DNA from: Squalus acanthias | Taxonomy: Eukaryota | Reading direction: 5' to 3' | DNA length: 64,000 bases | Assembly: GCA_030390025.1 (NCBI GenBank) | Contig: CM059434.1 | Coordinates: 25,234,001 to 25,298,000, forward strand | In this document: one piece after another, positions 3,641-61,344 of the stretch | Layout of the letters: each line of letters starts with the position of its first letter | How positions within the stretch are numbered: the stretch's first letter is position 1 | Position numbers and translations under genes: made by a program | Notes under the pieces: generated by a model | What the model saw: the letters and a program-made list of their open reading frames with translations, nothing else | What the model was told of the DNA's origin: nothing | The model's database searches: none

Positions 3641-4422
3641 GTGGAATAAGTTGGAATAAGAGACAAGAAGGGTCAGTTCGGGGATAGGAAGGGGAGGAGC
3701 AATGCAGAGAGTGAGCAGGATGGTGGAAGGGAAGAGAGGAATTGAGAGCGAAAGTGGACTGTAAAGTATGGGGGACTAAGGAAGGGAAGTATTCGTAGAG
3801 GAGAGTGGTTGAAGTGGAGGGATAGAGGATGAGCAGCAAGATGAATGGAGAAGGTGAATTCAAGGACAAGAGAACAGAGGGAATTATATATCACATTTTG
3901 GGGGTCAGTGTTTTACATTTTGGAGATTGAGGTATAGTGAATATTTAGAAAAGTTTGCTATTGTGTGTAAGAATCCACTTTCTCCCTTGTTTCTTCAACT
4001 TGCATTCAGGTTAGAGCAGCATTTAAAAAATGCTGTGCTGATGTCACTTATGGGGGGACCTCATGTTCGCCAAGTTACATTTCTGAAGCAGATCCAACAT
4101 TGACAAGCTAGTGTTCAGCTGAGATGCTACAGTGTTCACTTTTATTACGAGCCTTTGTAATGTGTCGTGTCTGTGTTAGGATTATCTTTAGAGAGAGGAC
4201 TGAAAGTCTTAGTAGTCACGTTTGAGGCACAGCAATGTACGTGTGTTCATTATATTTATTCAGGGGCTGAATGAGAAATTAGGCTAAGTTTGAACTCTGG
4301 TGGAGTAGGAAGGAGTACCTTATAGGAATAATAGTTCTGTTGTTGTTCAAAAGGGGAAAAGAAAATGCAATGCAGCATACAGTCAGTACTTATATTGCAA
4401 AGATGTTAAGAAAGGTAACAAT

Positions 4423-5157
4423 GGCCCAAAAATTAGTGAGGGCGCCTTCGTGCGAGGGTAAGGCTTCCCCGCGATCTCTCACTGCGCGCTGGCTTTTTCA
4501 GTCCCAGCTCGCACGAACTTGATGATCTGGACAGCAGCTGTGCAGGGCTTCCGTATCCCACAGGCGCAGTTAATTCATGCGAGCTGTGGGATCACGTGAC
4601 TCAGTTAGAGCCAATGGCAGCACCCCATCTTTCTTTCATAGCTTTCACATAAGTGCTGTGAAAGCTATGAATCTATACCCCCCAAAAGAACAGCTAAACC
4701 TCAATTAAATTTAAAAAAAAACCATCACATTAATAAAATAAGTATAGTTAAATAAATTAACCATTTTAAACAAAAAATTACATTTTTGAAAAAATTTAAA
4801 ATCTTTTAAAAAGTTATAAAAATAAACTTACCTGTCTTTAAAGTCTCTAAAAAAGATATACCTGTTAAAAAAATTCAAAATAATGCTTAATTAACTACTT
4901 ACCTTGTTAAAAGAGGGTCTTACGCCTCCTTTCTTTATGTCTAAAATGTTCCATGCTTACCTGCGCGTTCAAAGCACTAAGTGCACTGCGTGCGCGCAGC
5001 CTGTAGCGCGCACGCGGTTCACCTAGGAACCGCCCCCTTTTGAATTCACCAAGTGCCGGTTTTCAGCGCATGCGCATGCAGAAAACCAGCAATTGGAGAC
5101 AGAATAAGCGAGAGTACACAGTGCGTACTCTCGCGTAGCGGCACTAATTTTTGGGCC
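4423..5157. mobile_element. Non-autonomous DNA transposon (MITE), PIF/Harbinger-type
   Basis: Perfect 16-bp TIRs GGCCCAAAAATTAGTG (4423-4438) / CACTAATTTTTGGGCC (5142-5157). 3-bp TSD AAT on both sides. CpG-rich ends, AT-rich core. Confidence 0.85.
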
Positions 5158-8100
5158 AATAACATTTTAAACTGTCTTAATAAAGAGTGGCTGAAAAACT
5201 TTTTAGATCTAGATCATTTTAAATCTATAATCTTGACTATAATTTTATTTCAAAATTTAAGAAAATATAGGACAAAAATAAAAAAAGTAAACTAAATTGT
5301 GTTTCTGTGTTGTATTTTGTGTGTGGTTGGCTAACATTTACTGTAGCCAGTGGCGCATGTGTTGAATAAAATGAGATAGCTTATGTGTGAATGCTTAAAA
5401 AAAAAAAGCCCCAAAAATGCTAAAAAGTGAAAATGATGATGGTTCAAAACACTGAGCTTTCTTTCCCTTTAGGATGCAGACCAACCAACAGTTCAATTTC
5501 AACCTTTCCTGTTTTATTTCAGCTAGTGTAAAATGGCAGATGGTATTTGGCACACCTAGGAGAGGAAAACTGCTAGTTTTGTAAAAAAGGACAATTCAGT
5601 TTACTTGTTATAACATTAAATGGAGCATGAAGAAATGTACTGAAATCTGCTGGTTGAACTCCTGAGAGTTTCTGGTTTTCCCTCTGCCAGCAGGAGTTAG
5701 TGGATGGTGTTAATAAGCTCGACTGTTTGGCAGTAAATATACTTTTATTTAGCATCCGATTCTGTTTCTTAATGCTGCTCGTGAACAACTATGTTTTAGC
5801 AAGGTAATGAAGGCCTCCTTTGTACCTATGTAAACTGTTGTTTCTGGGGCTGGACTCGCAAAGATATTGCATTACTCAGAATATCATTTCCTAAAGTGAT
5901 TGATGTAACGGATGCAGGGTAGCAAAAGCAAGTAGTTGCACCCTTGACGGTGTAGGAAACTTGTAGTTTGGAGGAATATCATGCTGCTACGTTGGTTTTT
6001 TTCTCCACTGGACATAGACAGACTGGAAAAGAAATTAGTTTTTATAAGTTCCATTTATACAGCAGAATTATGGTTGGATCTAAATCAAGTAATACTTCAA
6101 ATAAAAATAGGTATAAACACAAGATCTATACAAATACTAGTATTGTTATGCACCAAATTTGACCTATACTCGCATTACAGGGGGTCACAAGTACAAGTCT
6201 GTTTTGACACATTTATTGCAGAAACATAGTGCTCCTCTCTCTTCACACAAATATTCCATTTATTTTGCACTATTCACCATCAGTTACAGGGGAACATAAA
6301 GTATGGGATTGTTTTCCTCATCAAGCTGGGTTCTTCAACTAGATTATGCACAATGTGTTCTCATGGATACTCTGCAACTTACTGCTGAAGGAGGTGATTA
6401 ATTACAAGTAGAGCTTTGAAGAAAACTATAAAATAGCTTTCTGAATTCAAAGTATTTAAACATAAACTCCAACTTTACACCGGTTGTCACCCGTGGATAA
6501 CATTTGCATAGTCCTAAAGCGACTTGTAGGATAGCAGCCATAGAGCATATAGCCATCTATGTGCATATTTATTCCTACCTCCACTGCTATGCCCGAACAG
6601 TGACCCTTTGTGGTTATCTCACCCGGTCCTGTTGAACTTGCCAGTGAGAATAGGATCTGATGTTTTGCAAACGAGGGGAACCTCATCATGTCGAGTGCGT
6701 GGGTGAGAAGACTACCAAGGAAGATTGGTTCCTTCATTTATACAGAAACTTATTTCTGACATATATGGTACCCAAGAACTTTGAGTGGGTTTATCCACGA
6801 GGAGTAATTCAAAATGGTATGTCGTTGATGTGGTATTTCCGGGAGATTGGGCTTACACGTCAAGAAAGGCACACTTGAGGGAGTAAACTACGAATGCAAG
6901 TTGTTTGTGAAATTTCATCAGTTAAACCATTTTTTCATCTGCCTTTATTTGAGCAACCGGTTTATCCAAGTTATCGCTCAGATTTTTATAAAGACAAAAG
7001 CCAGCAGCTTCTGAGTATTCTAGGAATGCTGGTATTTCTCATGAGTGAATAGAAATCTCAATCACAGCCAGTATAGTCCCCCTCTATCGTAGATGCCCAA
7101 TTTTGGATATCTCTGAACGTAGTCACCATATCACCTGTGATGTTTTGAAACTTTAACTCTCTCAGGAAGATGCAGAATGTACCCACAGTACTACTTCTGA
7201 CATATCATGCCATCTTTATTGTGTGACACTTTGTGATTAATGGACTAAACCTCCTTACATTGAGATCAACCATGAGGCAGTTGCATTAAATTAGTGGTTT
7301 CAAGATGCAATTAAATTGTCCTTGTGAACTCCACTGTCATTTCTTACTCTGGTGACAGATCTATTTTTCACCTTTTGAGGTTCTGGTCCAAAGGATGTGG
7401 TACAGCTACTTATAACTTGGTACATCAGCACTCTTGAACTTTCAGAAACGTGGCTGGGAATCCGAGACTTTTAACTTACATTTGACAATATTTAACTCAA
7501 CAGTTGCTACCTTTGCATAGCAAGTAGGAACTCCAATCAAAGAATGAGGAAGATCGCATCAAGACTAGTTAATCTAACATTTCACTGTAAGACATCTGTT
7601 GTCTATGTGTGACCTAAATGATCTACTTTGTTTTTGCATAGTAAAGTAATTACATTCAGGTGGATTTCTATAAATAATGCCAGCAACAAGGAAAAATATT
7701 ATTTTCTCCATTGTTTAAAGTAATTCTGCATGACATTGCATTCTTCAATCAAGGGTGAGCAATCAGTATACCAGCAACCTCTATCAATGCTACTCTACAA
7801 CTAACTGCAACAAGGTGTGTGAGAAGCTCAGGATAACTTACCACTCAGATTCGATTTTATTTAACCGCCGGTCCTTTTATGTCTGATTTCCCTCACACCC
7901 CACCCCCGCCTCAAAAAAAAAAGAGCTAGCCAACAGACTAAATTCAATTTGTTAGAAACTGAAGGACGAGCTGAAGTTCTGCCACTGTGTGGCACATTCC
8001 AATATTTAAGGAGTGAAGTTGAGCTTAGATGTCCACAGTGGTTCTTTTGAATACATGTGTTATAATTTGAATCTGTCGCAAACTCCACATAGCACAGATG

Positions 8101-8690
8101 ATGCAGATTACGGTATTTTTATTACCGTATTTCATTTCTTTCCAACAATGCTTAAATGCACAATAAATTGAGTGCAACATTATACATGTCATTTTTGGAG
8201 ACCTAAGTATTTGAATTAAAAGTTATAAATGTGATGAATGTTGTTGATATACTGTTACTAAAACTTAAATCACTCTGTTGTGACATAAAGCAGCTTATAG
8301 TATCTAATGTGGCTGTACAAAATTTGAATTGTGTTAAATAATTGACAAAGACACATGAGAATTATATTACGATTTGAAGCAAGGCTCCATTTTAAATTTG
8401 ACTCGTACTTCTGTGCATGAAAAACCTCCACTGCACAAGCATTGCACCTTCAATTGTTTTTAGTGGCAATTAACTTAAATATGTTACAAACAAAATGTAG
8501 TGGGGCTTCTAACTAAGTTTCTGATTTATCATAGAGTAATTAGTGAGAGCATATGCATTTTGGAAGGTAAAGAATTGGCCTTTAGCTCCTTAACAGTCAA
8601 TTAGCGTGATGCATACTTTGTATGTTTGATCAGTGAAAGCTCAGAATATAGGGTACAGATATTGTCCAGGCATGTTTTTGATGAGATATA

Positions 8691-9463
8691 GGGGTAAAAA
8701 TTGAGTCACGCCCCATTTGGGGCGCTAACCTCGCCGGGGCGCGACTTTTAGCGCCCCGAAAAAATTAGCGGCCCCGCGCCAGAACTTCAGTGGTTGCGCC
8801 CCAAGAGGTAAGCGGGGCGCCACTGGAAGCACCCCGCATCCCTCTTGGGGCGCTGCGAGTGAATATCCTGGCGCTACGTGCCGCAGCGCCACGCGCTGCG
8901 GCACGTCGCGCCGCGGTATTGCAGGCCTTCCTCCCCTTCTTAAAGGGGAGGGACCCTGCGCAGCGCGAACCGGGGCCCAGCTGGGCTCCCAGGGATCGGG
9001 AGTGCCGGCAAAAGAGCCCGGCACTCAAGAGAAGTGCCGGGCTCTTGGAGCGCAGCCGGCACTTCACGGTGGGGGGGCTTCACGGGGGCCGGGGACAGCA
9101 ACGGGGGCAGGTGCTGGCAGGCGGCCAGCAACAAAAATGGCCGCCTGCCACCTCCCCTTTAAATATCGCCGCCCCGGCCGCACGTACGCCTCCCTGAACC
9201 CGTCGGACATAGCGTCTGGCGGTAAATCAGGGGGCGCGACTGAAGATCACGGCCGGGGCGCGAGCGGGGTGCTGCGCACGGCGATGACGTCGTCGCCGGC
9301 GGCGCAGCGCCACAGGGCGCTACCGGCTGCCGCCGCCGCTAACCTCCCACTAAATTTTTCGGGAGGCGTGGGCGGCGCTGCGCCCGGGCGTTAGCTGCTT
9401 TACGCCCCATTAGCGCCCTCTTAAGGCGCTAACGGGAGGCGCAAGCAGCTGAATTTTTCCCCC
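8691..9463. mobile_element. GC-rich MITE, PIF/Harbinger-type
   Basis: TIRs GGGGTAAAAATTGAG / CTGAATTTTTCCCCC (13/15 match). TSD ATA at 8688-8690 and 9464-9466. Abrupt GC/CpG-rich block in an AT-rich intron. Confidence 0.85.
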
Positions 9464-40924: not shown

Positions 40925-42275
40925 GAATGTAACCTACTTGCACCCTTTCCTACAATTATATTTAAAACAAGGCAGTTAAAGCTAAAGGAGTTTACACGGT
41001 TAAAATATTTTACAACAAATTATAACAGTAATATTCTCGAGACTTCCTCTCGGCAAAGTACACAACACACCCAAACAGATATATTACTCTGAACTTCAAC
41101 CTTCTGCTTCAGTAGTATAAGTAATAACAATGGGCGTGATTGTTGCAAAAGATAATTACATTTAAAACTGCATAACATTTCACTTTTGGTATACTTAGCA
41201 TATTACACAATAAAAAAGATTTTTTTTTTTTGTTTATTTGTAAGACGTTTTCTTAACTTGTCTTTTTTTTTTTAATTGTGTAAACTGCAAGATCTTAAAC
41301 TACTGTTGCTACTATAGGTCAGTGCCCAGGACTAGACACACAGGTTTTTAACGTTTAAAGTCAAGTAAATATTTTTTAAAGGATTAACTACTTAATTGAT
41401 TTGAACTTGATATCCAGTTTACTTTAATAAAATGTTCTATTAAAACAAAATGAACTTAATAGATTGACAGTGGGGCAAGGAAACCAATTAGTCTCTGTAC
41501 CATAGTCAATATGGGGCACTCCTCAGACCCTGCAGCCAATATCACTTAAACCAAAGTAGTTTGGCAGGAACAAAAAAAAATCGGTTATAATCTGTATTCA
41601 GAAACCTTTGTTTAAAAAAAAAATTCATTTAATTATGAAAATTAGAATAAATTGATATGTTTACTAAAATTGCAGGATGTTCAGTATCTAATTGGAATAA
41701 TTCAAACCTACGCAGGACAAGGTGAAGGGGTTTTCTTGCATCATAACTCATTGGTACTGCAGTCTCGATGAGTTTGCCTTTTGTCATTAAGATCTTGTCA
41801 GAACAATGTCTTGTTAATCTATTCAGTGGGAGAATCATTTAAATTAGTTTACAAGCCATTCTATAAAATAAGTATGTGCTTTAAACTTCGGCCCATCGAT
41901 TGCCCTTATACACAATTTTATGTAAAACCGAAAGCTCTCTGCAATTTCCTCTGGAGTTTGGTGAATTCTAATTACAGATTTGGCCCTAAAAAGAAAAGAT
42001 GCCATTCTACCATAGACTTTTATAAGCTCGCCTGTTAAAAAGGATATCAATTTCAAATGAAACTTGGGATTTTGAATAGTTTTCAGGGTTGCTCTTGTAC
42101 AGTAAAGGGGTATAATATAAATATTTTTAAGTTGAAGTAAACCTCATTTCTAATCCTACCAACCTATAATAGGAAAAGTGCTGCATATAAATCTCCATGT
42201 TGCGTTATGTCCTTAGTCCAGCATTATGTAATAATTGTATTATTTTCAGTGTTTGAATATGTAATGTTATGTCGG

Positions 42276-42605: not shown

Positions 42606-43670
42606 CTGGAAGAAAAATAAACAGACCAAACGTTAATCGACCAACATAATATTCACGTTGGATTTTCTTTTCTCACTTATTTTTCTTCTGGTTAGTTTTA
42701 AGTGTGCTTTATTTTAATACTTTATAATCCTTTTTTTAAACTAGTTGTTCAACATCCTATTAGTGTGGATCACAGTCAATGTGCAGTATGTCCATTGCAA
42801 AGGAACACTTCTACCACTATAAGAGTCTGATTACTCTAGCAGTGCAGAATTCTTCTAAATTTTTAACACCGTCTTGGAAGACATGCTCACCTAAATATTG
42901 TACATTTTATATCATTATCTTCGGGTAAATATACATGCTCACTAGGTGCACTGGGTTTGAATAGTTTGACATCCCCTTGCCATGTGTTTTCAGAACCATT
43001 GCTGATGCATTATGAAGAAATAGAGCCTGTAGCATTACCCTGTCTCTGTGTGAAGTCCATGTTGTGTAGGATATCTGTGACTTTTTTAATGAGCCAAGTT
43101 TTTTTTTTTAAAAAGGACATAACGCAACATGGAGATTTATATGCAGCACTTTTCCTATTATAGGTTGGTATTGGGAGTGGAGCACTATTCCACTTGCCTT
43201 CAGTACTTGGGGTCAGTATTATGGGGCTAGGTGAAGTCTTTGTTCCTTAACCTGAATCGTAATATAGGACCTCCAGGTGCAGTACATTTTTTTTAATGTT
43301 TCATTAAATGTGGTTGCAGTTCCTGCCACATTGTGCCCAATTTTGTGTTATGGAAATGTGCCTCGTAGAAACTGGCAGAGAAGGGAGAGTTTCATTCCCA
43401 TAGTCTGGACTAGATTCAAGTTCTGGTCCAAGAATGAAAGGACATTGTTATAAAGCACTGTGCCATCTAGCCTTCATGACCAAAATGTTATAAATTTTAT
43501 GCAATATAGCTACAGAACAGGAAGTGGCCTTGGTGTTGGTATCCGAGCCAGAAAGAGGAATATCATTCCAGTAATGGGGATGGGGAGGGTACAAAGATGA
43601 TAATGTTGGATTTCTCCACAACAAGCTTCTGAAAGTGCTGATGGGGTTTACATAGGAACAAGAGTAGGCC

Positions 43671-45643
43671 ATAACCAGGGAAAGAGTAGGGCCCATTAGG
43701 GACCAAAGTGGCAATCTATGTGTAGAGCCGGAAGATGTAGGTGAGGTTTTAAATGATTATTTTGCATCTGTGTTCACTATGGAGAAGGACGATGTAGGCA
43801 TAGAAATCAGGCAGGGGAATTGTGATATACTTGAACAAATTAGCATTGAGAGGGAGGCGGTACTAGCAGTTTTAGCAGGCTTAAAAGTGGATAAATCCCC
43901 AGGCCCAGATGAGATGTATCCCAGGCTGCTGTGTGAGGCAAGGGAGGAGATTGCAGGGGCTCTGACACAAATTTTCAGAACCTCTCTGGCCACAGGGGAG
44001 GTGCCAGAGGACTGGAGAACAGCTAACGTAGTACCATTATTCAAGAAGGGTAGTAGGGATAAACCAGGGAATTACAGGCCAGTGAGCCTAACATCAGTGG
44101 TAGGGAAATTACTGGAAAAAATTCTGAGGGACAGAATTAGTCTCCACTTGGAGAGGCAAGGATTAATCAAGGATAGTCAGCATAGCTTTGTCAGTGGGAG
44201 ATCATGTCTAACCAATTTGAATTTTTCGAGGGGGGTGACTAGGTGTGTGGATGAGGGTAGTGCAGTTGATGTAGTCGACATGGACTTCAGTAAGGCTTTT
44301 GACAAAGTCCCACATGGGAGACTGGTCAAGAAGGTAAGAGCCCATGGGATCCAGGGCAATTTGGCACATTGGATCCAAAATTAGCTTAGTGGCAGGGGGC
44401 AGAGGGTGATGGTCGAAGGTTGTTTTTGTGACTGGAAGCCTGTGTCCAGTGGTGTACCGCAGGGATCGGTGCTGGCTCCCTTGCTGTTTGTAGCGTACAT
44501 TAATGATTTAGATATGAATGTAGGAGGTATGATCAGTAAGTTCACAGATGACATGAAAATTGGTGGAGTGGTAAATAGCGAGGAGGGAAGCCTCAGGCTA
44601 CAGGACGATATAGCCGGGTTGGTCAGATGGGCAGAACAGTGGCAAATGGAATTTAACCCTGAAAAGTGTGAGGTGATGCATTTTGGGAGGACTAACAAGG
44701 CAAGGGAATACACAATGAATGGTAGGACCCTAGAAAGGACAGAGGATCCTTGGTGTGCATGTACATAGATCCCTGAAGGCAGCAGGACAGGTAGATAAGG
44801 TGGTTAAAAAGGCATATGGGATACTTATATTCTATGCCTCGGCTAATGAAGGCAAGAGTGAGAAGTCGCACAACACCAGGTTATAGTCTAACAGTTTTAT
44901 TTGAAATCGCAAGCTTTCGGAGCTGCTGCCCCTTCGTCAAGCTCCGAAAGCTTGCGATTTCAAATAAAACTGTTAGACTATAACCTGGTGTTGTGCGACT
45001 TCTCACTTTTGTCCACCCCAGTCCAACACCGGCATCTCCGCATCATAGAATATAAGAGCAGGGAGGTTATGATGGAGCTGTACAAAACGCTAGTTAGGCC
45101 ACAGCTGGAATACTGTGTGCAGTTCTGGTCGCCACACTATAGGAAGGATGTGATTGCATTGGAGAGGGTGCAGAGGAGATTCACCAGGATGTTACCTGGG
45201 CTGGAGCACTTCAGCTATGAAGAGAGACTGGACAGGCTGGGGTTGTTTTCCTTAGAGCAGAGAAGGCTGAGGGGGGTCCTGATTGAGGTGTACAAAATTA
45301 TATGGGGCATAGATAGGGTAGATAGAAAGGAACTTTTCCCCGTTAGTAGAGGGGTCAATAACCAGGGGGCATAGTTTCAAGGTAAGGGGCAGGAGGTTTA
45401 GAGGGGATTTGAGGAAAAACCTTTTCACCCAGAGGGTGGTTGGAATCTGGAACTCACTGCCTGAAAGGGTGGTAGAGGCAGGAACCCTCACAACATTCAA
45501 GAAGCATTTAGATGAGCACTTGAAACGCCATAGCATACAAGGCTACGGACCAAGTGCTGGAAAATGGGATTAGAATAGATGGCTTGATGGCCGGCGCAGA
45601 CACAATGGGCCGAAGGGCCTCCTTCTGTGCTGTATGACTCTAT
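43671..45643 (+). mobile_element. CR1 LINE, 5'-truncated, in ALX4 intron 3
   Basis: KSPGPDEMYPR, GNYRPVSLTSVVGK, DFSKAFDKVPH, SGVPQGSVL, FTDDMK and [10 protein letters not shown] motifs. Tail TGTATGACTCTAT. Confidence 0.95.
44857..45046 (+). mobile_element. Penelope-like (PLE) non-coding 3'-end fold-back insertion nested in CR1
   Basis: Perfect 68-bp inverted arms (44857-44924 / 44940-45007). Same family as 60017-60588. Partial hammerhead motif, AATAAA, and terminus GTCCACCCCAGTCCAACACCGGCATCTCCGCATCAT. Confidence 0.8.
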
Positions 45644-58849: not shown

Positions 58850-59148
58850 CTGCACACGAGCTTCTGTCAGGTCAGTTCTCAGTGCGAGCTGTTCCCTGGC
58901 ATAAACGTCAGGATAATGAGTCTTTTGAAAAACCTTTTCCAATTCCTCCAGCTGGTAACTGGTGAAGGTGGTCCTGTTCCTGCGCTTCTTGCCCTTGTTG
59001 CTGTCGCTCTCGCCTTTGTCCATAGCACTGGACAGCTCGGTGTTGGCTCCTTTCATTGCCGCCTCTTTAACGCTGAGGTAGGGACTCTCCATCACGGCAG
59101 GGTCTGAGCTCTGGGGCAACTCCGACTCTCCCAGTGGGCTGTCTTTAG
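58850..59148 (-). CDS. ALX4: ALX4 exon 2 (homeodomain helices 1-2)
   Basis: gtgttcAG / GTaaag, 299 bp. Encodes [11 protein letters not shown]...[51 protein letters not shown]. Confidence 0.97.
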
Positions 59149-60105
59149 CTGAACACAAACAAGAGTCGAATTAACGGGAATACTTGAGAGTAAAATACTG
59201 TGCTTAATAATCGTTTCATCTCTTAACCCTTTCAAGTATAGGATTCCATTCCTTCCTCAAACGAATATTGCTGGGCACAATTAAAACAGCCAAATTCCGA
59301 TATTCAGGAAAGTACCATTAACGATTAAAAGTACCATAAATTCCAATACATTAAAAAATTGGGACCTCGTGAGAAAATATTGCACAAAAAATTGAAAGGC
59401 GATTACCACTTCAAGCTTTCCAAAGATTCGTACCTTTCCAATATCGTTTTTCCTATGTTTGCCCTTCTCTACAAATCTTCGTTTGGATGTCGTCAATAAA
59501 AATGGCGCCTGTTCTGTGTAGTACTAGTAGTTACATACTACATGGCGATTGCTCTCAGTGGGAATGTCCATTTAAAGTCAACCTTTACTGGTCCTATGGC
59601 CGCACATGCTACTCTACTTGGTGCACAGGAATGACTGGATAACGCAAAGCGTTTACTTGGCTGTTCTTGTGTACCACCACCTGAGTCTGTGTTCACTAAT
59701 GGTCTGGAATTAGAGCAATAAAGACTTTTGTTGCCTAAATTCGAGTATGTTCCTGTATGCAAAGGGACTCGTGTATCCGTGTCCCACATAGTTTATACGT
59801 TTTAAAATATTTCGCGAAAAATACTGATTGAATGCTTAACACCATCTTCCCATAGTTTTTCTTACATTTATTTCCATGTACATAAATGTTAGATTTATAA
59901 CTCTACGCAATGTTGTTGGCTAAAGCAAACTTGAAAGTGAAGACAGCTTTCAAACTCCTATTGCTGAACCGGCGTCTGTGGAGGATTGGACTAATGCACT
60001 GTCTGTCTTAAAACCCATGATGTGGAGATGCCTGCGTTGGACTGGGGTGGACAAAAATGAGAAGTCGCACAACACCAGGTTATAGTCCAACAGATTTATT
60101 TAATT

Positions 60106-60144
60106 TTACAAGCTTTCGGAGCAGTTCGCTCCTTCGTCAGGTAA
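60106..60144 (-). ncRNA. Minimal hammerhead ribozyme motif (left arm, ALX4 sense strand)
   Basis: Reverse complement reads UUAC-CUGACGA-A-GGAGC(GAACU)GCUCC-GAAA-GC-UU-GUAA. Confidence 0.7.
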
Positions 60145-60493
60145 GTTTAGCAGTGAGAGAATCTCCCAGAATTCACAATTTAAACACAGACAAAATATAT
60201 TCAAATCTTTCCCACATCAAAGAGCATAGCCAAGACAATGAGATGTGTCCCAGGCACGATACAGAACGTGACTTGACATCATGGCCGGTCTTCCCAGGTG
60301 TTTTTTTAAAAAAAAGGCTAACACAAGAACCTACACAGATTGACAGGATATGCAGCCAGCAGGTGTTTTGACACGTTGGACCCCCTGGGACACATCTCAT
60401 TGTCTTGGCTATGCTCTTTGATGTGGGAAAGATTTGAATATATTTTGTCTGTGTTTAAATTGTGAATTCTGGGAGATTCTCTCACTGCTAAAC

Positions 60494-60532
60494 TTACCTG
60501 ACGAAGGAGCGAACTGCTCCGAAAGCTTGTAA
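60494..60532 (+). ncRNA. Minimal hammerhead ribozyme motif (right arm)
   Basis: Stem I TTAC/GTAA, core CTGACGA at 60498-60504, stem II GGAGC/GCTCC, GAAA at 60521-60524, palindromic AGCT in place of stem III, UH at 60527-60528. Confidence 0.7.
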
Positions 60533-61344
60533 AATTAAATAAATCTGTTGGACTATAACCTGGTGTTGTGCGACTTCTCATTTTTGTCTTAAAACCGGTT
60601 TCATTAAGGAAACATATACGTGGATGTATATTCTATATAGACAGGTGTGCAAGTCTAAAATTGTTCGGTGACACAGATGAGTGAAAGCAAGACTGAGATT
60701 AAGACGGTCACTACCTGGGTACATCTGTACTGTGTGTGTGTGTGTGTGTATTGGCTTTCCACCTTTTTCGCTATTCCGCGACTCTGGTGTGTGAAAAGCA
60801 CGGGGCCCATACAAACAAGCCCCAGTCAAGAGCCTGCAGATAAATTGAACACCTTCCGGGTAAGCTAGTTCTTGGGAAGGGGATGTTGTTGCTGAATATC
60901 TCCATCAAATATTTCACTTTTAACTTGCTAACCTTTCCATGGAAATTCCCCACCACTCTCCAGTAGACATGAAAACGGAGTTCACTTATGCACCAACCAA
61001 TTCCACCTCCTCCCTCCCCCCCCCCCCCCCCAACAAAAAAAGTATCGCATCTCCTTGCAGACAAAGTTACTTCATAAAACGAGCTGGAGGAAAGGCGAAC
61101 TTCAAGCAATGATTGGACATTTCCACCTGACCCACAATGATGGCTTGTGCACAATTCTGCGCCTGTGTTTGGGTGGGTAGTTTAAAACCCAGCAAATGGG
61201 AAAGTTAGAGCGTTCTAATCATAACTTGGTGAGACTATTAACTTGTTTCGATTAAAGCAATGCCTATATGTAAACAACGTCTGCATAAATGGTGGGGGGG
61301 GGAGTATAATTGCAGCGGGAATGCGATGTAGCCCATAACTTGTA

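What the first reader, a model, noticed from the sequence alone, without database searches (positions are those of the whole stretch)
60004..60596. Hammerhead-ribozyme fold-back element: 205-bp perfect inverted repeat with a ribozyme motif and AATAAA on both strands, inside ALX4 intron 1
Seen: two arms that appear identical (60050-60254, 60384-60588), a 129-bp spacer and a 12-bp TSD, with no recognisable coding capacity. Each arm has the full minimal hammerhead layout (stem I UUAC/GUAA, CUGACGA, stem II GGAGC/GCUCC, GAAA, palindromic AGCU, UH), followed about 6 nt later by AATAAA. Known: Penelope-like elements carry minimal hammerheads with palindromic stem III that are thought to act as dimers, and they often insert as inverted partial copies. 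Inference: this is a young, non-autonomous PLE/retrozyme-like family in a chondrichthyan, encoding a candidate self-cleaving motif whichever strand is transcribed.
Basis: partly seen in the sequence, partly recalled or inferred. Interest (0 to 1): 0.78.

Follow-up and report, generated by a model that had tools for sequence, protein, structure and literature searches.

The report
Truncated Penelope retrotransposon with inverted ends
The fold-back is a shortened, head-to-head insertion of a young, protein-coding Penelope-like jumping gene that carries a known type of ribozyme motif; the one new point is that all 30 such inverted copies examined have one short and one long end, which likely records how they integrate.

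Summary
The structure is real: identical 205-bp arms, a 129-bp spacer, a 12-bp target duplication and a minimal hammerhead plus AATAAA in each arm, inside ALX4 intron 1. It is not a dedicated non-autonomous element. It is a 5'-truncated, inverted insertion of an autonomous Penelope-like element (PLE; 3,015-bp unit, 888-aa RT + Zn-finger-like + GIY-YIG ORF, likely Neptune clade). Three intact copies match it at 98-99.6%. The spacer starts with the ORF's last five codons and stop. A missed 34-nt 'tail' ends in the ORF's ATG. The genome has 1,088 exact and 76,938 looser matches to the ribozyme motif. Inverted copies run from about 230 to 3,660 bp, mostly with their own duplications. Inverted arms, one-sided tails and opposite-strand hammerhead pairs are published PLE features. 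Cleavage from this locus is unlikely: each strand has one monomer, and the arm duplex is predicted to beat the ribozyme fold by 68 kcal/mol. Side result: 30 of 30 inverted pairs, not chosen for their ends, have one short and one long end. This points to paired priming at two RT start sites.

The parts
60004..60015 (+). Left copy of the target-site duplication (12 bp)
60016..60049 (-). 34-nt PLE 'tail', present at this end only; ends in the ORF start codon (60018-60016); one private change at 60033
60050..60254 (-). Inverted, 5'-truncated copy of the PLE 3' non-coding region (inverted pLTR)
60106..60144 (-). Minimal type I hammerhead motif, copy 1; AATAAA at 60100-60095
   Evidence: mirror of the + copy
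60255..60271 (+). Last five codons and stop of the 888-aa RT/GIY-YIG ORF
60255..60588 (+). Direct, 5'-truncated element body (spacer + right arm), 98-99% identical to intact copies; ends at the short site, no tail
60494..60532 (+). Minimal type I hammerhead motif, copy 2 (extra A at 60505; predicted cut after 60528)
60538..60543 (+). AATAAA followed by a GT/T-rich stretch; poly(A)-signal-like, function untested
   Evidence: sequence
60585..60596 (+). Right copy of the target-site duplication
58850..59150 (-). ALX4 coding exon 2 (host context); the insertion lies about 870 nt upstream of its acceptor

Best explanation
This is a 5'-truncated, head-to-head insertion of a young, autonomous Penelope-like retrotransposon (likely Neptune clade), likely made when both nicked strands of the target primed reverse transcription, and its two hammerhead motifs are predicted to be inactive at this locus. 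Shown: the parent unit is ATG - 888-aa ORF - 348-nt non-coding region (hammerhead, AATAAA, tail) - next ATG. The window holds the last 334 nt of one unit up to the short end and, inverted, the last 239 nt up to the long end, between duplicated host bases. Inferred: GIY-YIG makes a staggered cut about 12 bp apart. One 3'-OH primes about 35 nt before the ATG, the other at the ATG. Both cDNAs stop early and are joined by their truncated ends. From the literature, untested here: the hammerhead works as a dimer or with protein help on tandem transcripts, where motifs are 3,015 nt apart in the same orientation.
For: Copies: 40 of 40 scored candidates (of 1,152) match the arm+tail at 99-100%, 39 over all 239 nt and one over 203 nt. 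Exact 62-nt motif: 1,088 matches. Loose motif: 76,938 matches, reversed control 0. Parent: 3 of 5 fetched candidates (L081-L083) have an uninterrupted 888-aa ORF, a fourth has 892 aa and the fifth is broken; the window matches L081-L083 at 98-99.6%. ORF: RVT_1 E=2e-8; CX4CxxC, VVYLIRC..YIGET, Arg, His, Glu and Asn align with relatives, some annotated PF01541. The ATG follows the arm+tail directly in 27 of 30 N-terminus loci (one with ATA); two more keep only the last 8-13 nt and one is the query itself. Among the first 100 exact matches, 46 lie in 23 head-to-head pairs (counted by hand). Sizes were 233-3,664 bp in the 20 tallied, and a duplication of 10-15 bp was called in 19 of 23. End rule: 23 of 23 pairs have one short end (-30 to -42) and one long end (-4 to +12); 7 of 7 pairs from other subfamilies do too. 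Single copies split 9 short: 7 long, so chance would give about 8e-8 for 23 of 23. Ribozyme conservation: with the 8 core positions left free, 95 of 98 listed rows keep CTGANGAA and N7 takes all four bases (counted by hand; 2 junction rows dropped). 94.6% of cells pair, and one stem I pair changes on both sides (UA 22, CG 10). Fold-back: -428.0 against -359.7 kcal/mol with the ribozyme forced.
Against: No cleavage, priming or activity was tested. Covariation is thin: 1 of 9 pairs changes on both sides, probably one inherited event, and the pair-count controls are at shuffle level (499/500); the outer stem I pair fails in 11 of 35. Our Pfam copy did not hit GIY-YIG on the protein itself; that call rests on motifs. 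The clade is assigned by motif, not by a tree with named references. Frangieh 2024 saw no difference in start site between strands in vitro, which does not by itself predict a strict one-each rule. No read contig spans the whole insertion; flank contigs reach only about 20-22 nt into it, below the tool's 31-nt bridging bar.
Confidence: 0.85

Rival explanations
1. A dedicated non-autonomous fold-back or retrozyme-like family of about 570 bp that spreads as a unit.
For: The window copy has no useful coding capacity, and one other copy has a similar length (L002, 567 bp). Non-autonomous PLE derivatives exist.
Against: Lengths and inner breakpoints differ from copy to copy. The spacer is the ORF end plus 3' region, lying in either orientation in other copies. 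Retrozymes are defined as tandem arrays, and no tandem repeat was found here.
Confidence: 0.03
2. Same element, but the inverted arm and one-sided tail arise otherwise: by self-priming on an antisense template, or by endonuclease resolution of an intermediate.
For: Both are proposed in print (PMC3846280; PMC8557442). A resolution step could also give a one-each rule. One pair (L124) has a 15-nt palindromic junction.
Against: Most central junctions are short overlaps (1-5 nt in 17 of 23 by BLAST ends, rough), not hairpins, and the window's is blunt. Both outer ends fall on the same two sites used by single copies. The anole protein extends both target strands from two internal sites in vitro.
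Confidence: 0.35
3. The insertion acts on ALX4 RNA as a ribozyme, intronic poly(A) site, cryptic splice donor or dsRNA/editing substrate.
For: It lies 870 nt from the exon 2 acceptor. The ALX4-sense strand carries a consensus-like donor CAGGTAAGT (60500-60492), an AATAAA (60100-60095) and a 205-bp hairpin.
Against: All three signals sit inside the predicted duplex. The copy is very young and one of tens of thousands. No locus-specific RNA evidence was obtained.
Confidence: 0.07
4. Assembly fold-back artefact.
For: The arms are 100% identical, and no contig spans the insertion.
Against: It has a target duplication, a one-sided tail and a unique spacer. The same anatomy recurs at 30 other loci. 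Contigs from two samples run from the left flank into the tail, and one sample's contigs run from the right arm into the flank.
Confidence: 0.01

Closest known systems
EN+ Penelope-like elements, Neptune clade (Craig et al. 2021, PMC8557442; passages read)
   Same: [quoted passage not shown]
   Different: No named family for this shark element was found in my searches. The one-short/one-long rule holds here in 30 of 30, where the paper says 'often'.
Minimal PLE hammerheads (Cervera & de la Pena 2014, PMC4209133; parts 1-2 of 4 read, one supplement searched)
   Same: Type I, no stem III, palindromic 15-16 positions, extra base between 9 and 10.1, G10.1-C11.1, short stem I. The paper already reports pairs 100-700 bp apart on opposite strands.
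   Different: Stem II is 5 bp here, against 7-8 in schistosomes. The count (76,938 loose matches) exceeds their 4,000-9,000 in coelacanth and Xenopus, though the search methods differ. No shark term was found in the supplement searched; file 1 could not be searched.
PAc, Poseidon of Anolis (Frangieh et al. 2024, PMC11167929; parts 1-2 of 4 read)
   Same: Two internal RT start sites bracket the tail; both target strands are cut and extended; the ribozyme needs protein and is dispensable for insertion in vitro.
   Different: There the ORF starts inside the hammerhead and RT starts 111-118 nt into the ORF. Here the hammerhead is about 90-130 nt upstream of the ATG and the long site sits at the ATG. 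The paper's main text does not explain inverted copies.
Non-LTR retrozymes (bioRxiv 10.64898/2026.07.22.740005; parts 1-2 of 5 and passages read)
   Same: Type I hammerhead of PLE origin; present in a chondrichthyan.
   Different: They are tandem non-coding arrays; this is a single inverted truncation of a coding element.

Membership tests
EN+ Penelope-like element | Single ORF with RT followed by GIY-YIG endonuclease | tested here: met
   888-aa ORF in L081-L083; RVT_1 hit; GIY-YIG residues by alignment, relatives annotated PF01541. No direct Pfam GIY-YIG hit.
EN+ Penelope-like element | Partial-tandem pLTRs with the ORF start at the pLTR/tail end | tested here: met
EN+ Penelope-like element | Inverted 5'-truncated copy, 30-40-nt one-sided tail, target duplication | tested here: met
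Neptune clade | CX2-5CxxC motif between RT and EN, with C-terminal EN | tested here: met
   CX4CxxC; shared with Nematis
Neptune clade | RT phylogeny with named Neptune references | not testable with these tools
   No named PLE references were on hand; vertebrate PLEs are reported as Neptune or Poseidon.
Minimal type I hammerhead | Catalytic core, stems I and II, extra base 9/10.1, palindromic 15-16 | tested here: met
Minimal type I hammerhead | Covariation in stems | tested here: inconclusive
   One compensatory pair plus wobble changes; related sequences
Minimal type I hammerhead | Self-cleavage as dimer or with protein | not testable with these tools
   needs a bench assay
Rfam hammerhead families | Covariance-model hit | tested here: not met
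   No hammerhead hit at E<=10
Non-LTR retrozyme | Tandem array of non-coding hammerhead units | tested here: not met
Non-autonomous fixed-length family (MITE-like) | Many copies with the same ends and inner junction | tested here: not met
   Sizes 233-3,664 bp with differing junctions

The most novel reading that the evidence does not exclude
Inverted Penelope insertions are built by obligate paired priming: the two nicked target strands each prime reverse transcription, always one at each of two internal start sites about 35 nt apart. This shark family, with intact ORFs and tens of thousands of junctions, records that rule without exception in 30 of 30 pairs.
Probability: 0.5. Interest if true: 0.55.

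Novelty: new member of a known kind. Interest (0 to 1): 0.3.

Why it matters
The locus itself is ordinary transposon debris. The family is useful because how PLEs form inverted repeats and one-sided tails is stated as unresolved in the papers read. A young family with intact ORFs and over a thousand near-identical junctions lets that be counted genome-wide and rebuilt in vitro. It also shows that this genome carries tens of thousands of hammerhead/AATAAA motifs and many long perfect hairpins, at least one inside a developmental gene.

Tried and rejected
Rfam scan: no hammerhead hit. Tandem Repeats Finder: nothing at the locus. The first script on the loci failed because the window's tail has a private change at 60033; it was rerun with mismatches. 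Pfam found no GIY-YIG on the full ORF or on its last 161 aa. Sequencing runs: no RNA holder listed. Four runs guessed to be RNA cover the full element in contigs, but these show neither strand, ends nor expression. Whether an empty allele exists could not be settled: only contigs, and no piece spans the stretch. A stem pairing the tail with the sequence after AATAAA is predicted but not better than shuffles (z -0.65), so it is only a lead. Of 16 single copies, most are plain truncations with a duplication; one (L145) has a short inverted tail piece. L112/L113 face each other tail-to-tail, differ in subfamily and are both short; I left them out of the pair count as separate insertions. Lunse et al. 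(dimer cleavage) is not held; I saw only its title in a reference list. Searches for a printed twin-priming account of PLE inversions found none, nor one for this shark family. The library lacks most subscription papers and Repbase, and supplements of the preprint were not seen. The earlier-findings look-up was empty.

Full report
Observation. The two arms (60050-60254, 60384-60588) are 205 nt and exactly complementary, 129 nt apart. A 12-bp duplication flanks the insertion at 60004-60015 and 60585-60596; its first four bases are also the arm's last four, so 8-12 bp is the honest range. Each arm has the minimal hammerhead layout with an extra A after the core and AATAAA 5 nt after stem I. Rfam does not detect it. 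The host gene is ALX4 on the - strand: homeodomain and OAR exons, 94% identity to ray and shark ALX4, and coding exon 1 about 21 kb away. The element lies in the first coding intron, about 870 nt before exon 2.

What it is. A genome search with the element found 1,152 candidates; all 40 scored match the arm and tail at 99-100%. In the 29 other loci checked, 28 differ from the window only at 60033 and one at two sites. Longer stretches showed that the arm continues into a long ORF. Searching with the ORF's start showed the arm and tail directly before the ATG in 27 of 30 loci. Of five candidates fetched, three have an uninterrupted 888-aa ORF between two direct repeats 3,015 nt apart, one has 892 aa and one is broken. 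The window matches the three at 98-99.6%. The protein has an RT, a CX4CxxC motif and GIY-YIG residues that align with relatives, some annotated PF01541. The closest named relatives are shark proteins at 79-91%. By the criteria in PMC8557442 (passages) this is an EN+ PLE of the Neptune or Nematis type; Neptune is likelier because it is the one reported in vertebrates. The window's spacer begins with the ORF's last five codons and stop, and the tail ends in its ATG. So the insertion is the last 334 nt of a unit plus an inverted last 239 nt.

How common. An exact 62-nt ribozyme+AATAAA pattern has 1,088 matches; a loose one has 76,938, with 0 for the reversed control. Of the first 100 exact matches, 46 form 23 head-to-head pairs (counted by hand). 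All 23 were fetched. Twenty with both ends tallied run from 233 to 3,664 bp, and 19 of 23 gave a 10-15-bp duplication. The fold-back is therefore a routine insertion form, not a family of fixed size. PMC4209133 already reports minimal hammerhead pairs 100-700 bp apart on opposite strands. PMC8557442 and PMC3846280 describe the inverted copy, tail and duplication.

The ribozyme. With the eight core positions left free, 95 of 98 listed rows keep CTGANGAA (two junction rows dropped), and N7 is C 49, G 32, A 14, T 3 by hand count. Among 35 distinct variants, 94.6% of cells pair, stem II changes are nearly all wobbles, and one stem I pair switches U-A to C-G in 10 sequences. That is one event in related sequences, so covariation is suggestive only. 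Published minimal PLE hammerheads cut weakly and only as multimers or with protein. At this locus each strand's RNA has one sense motif, transcribed after its complement. The fold-back is predicted at -428.0 kcal/mol against -359.7 with the ribozyme forced, and stem II probability is zero (+ strand; the - strand folds into the same duplex). The two motifs are likely passengers here.

Mechanism. Element 3' ends fall at two sites: short (-30 to -42 from the ATG) and long (-4 to +12). All 23 pairs, chosen only by the ribozyme pattern, have one of each (L125's short end was read from BLAST, L133's tail has an internal deletion and L118 is complex). Seven of seven pairs from other subfamilies agree, as do L144 and the window. 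Sixteen single copies split 9:7, so independent choice would give 23 of 23 with probability near 8e-8. The anole PLE protein extends both target strands and starts at two internal sites that bracket the tail. I infer that both nicked strands prime, one at each site, and that the two truncated cDNAs are joined; 17 of 23 central junctions show a 1-5-nt overlap by BLAST ends. This step is inferred (about 0.55). Endonuclease resolution or antisense self-priming, both proposed in print, remain open. I found no printed statement of the strict rule, but the library is incomplete.

Artefact check. Contigs from two samples run from the left flank 22 nt into the tail, and one sample's contigs run about 20 nt into the right arm; none spans the element and these fall short of the tool's bridging bar. 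The recurring anatomy with separate duplications makes a fold-back artefact very unlikely.

Verdict. Real, young and a clear example, but a new member of a known kind. The end rule is the part worth following.

Noticed in passing
window 42157-42214 and 43113-43170: A perfect 58-bp inverted repeat, 898 nt apart, brackets the last ALX4 coding exon (one arm 65 nt past the stop, one in the intron). Unexplained.
   Followed up: partly
window 44853-45057: An older inverted copy of a related PLE subfamily (72-bp arms, tail on one side, hammerhead truncated), inserted in a decayed LINE-like RT within ALX4 intron 3.
   Followed up: partly
window 60138-60146 (+) and 60500-60492 (-): The antisense of stem I plus the core start reads CAGGTAAGT, a consensus 5' splice site (consensus recalled). 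Copies of this subfamily that keep the motif therefore offer a donor on the antisense strand.
   Followed up: no
window 60538-60588: AATAAA with a GT/T-rich stretch lies upstream of both insertion ends, so the template for integration would have to read through this poly(A)-like signal.
   Followed up: no
L118-L140, L141-L157: Target duplications often overlap the element's end by 1-4 nt, which may mean microhomology helps priming; not tested against chance.
   Followed up: no
P0019: A shark epn2 protein model contains a 94%-identical piece of this PLE ORF: exonisation or an annotation error.
   Followed up: no
L041:7572-8456 (-); window 60021-60368 (+): A stop-free frame runs antisense through the pLTR (116 aa in the window); probably incidental.
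   Followed up: no
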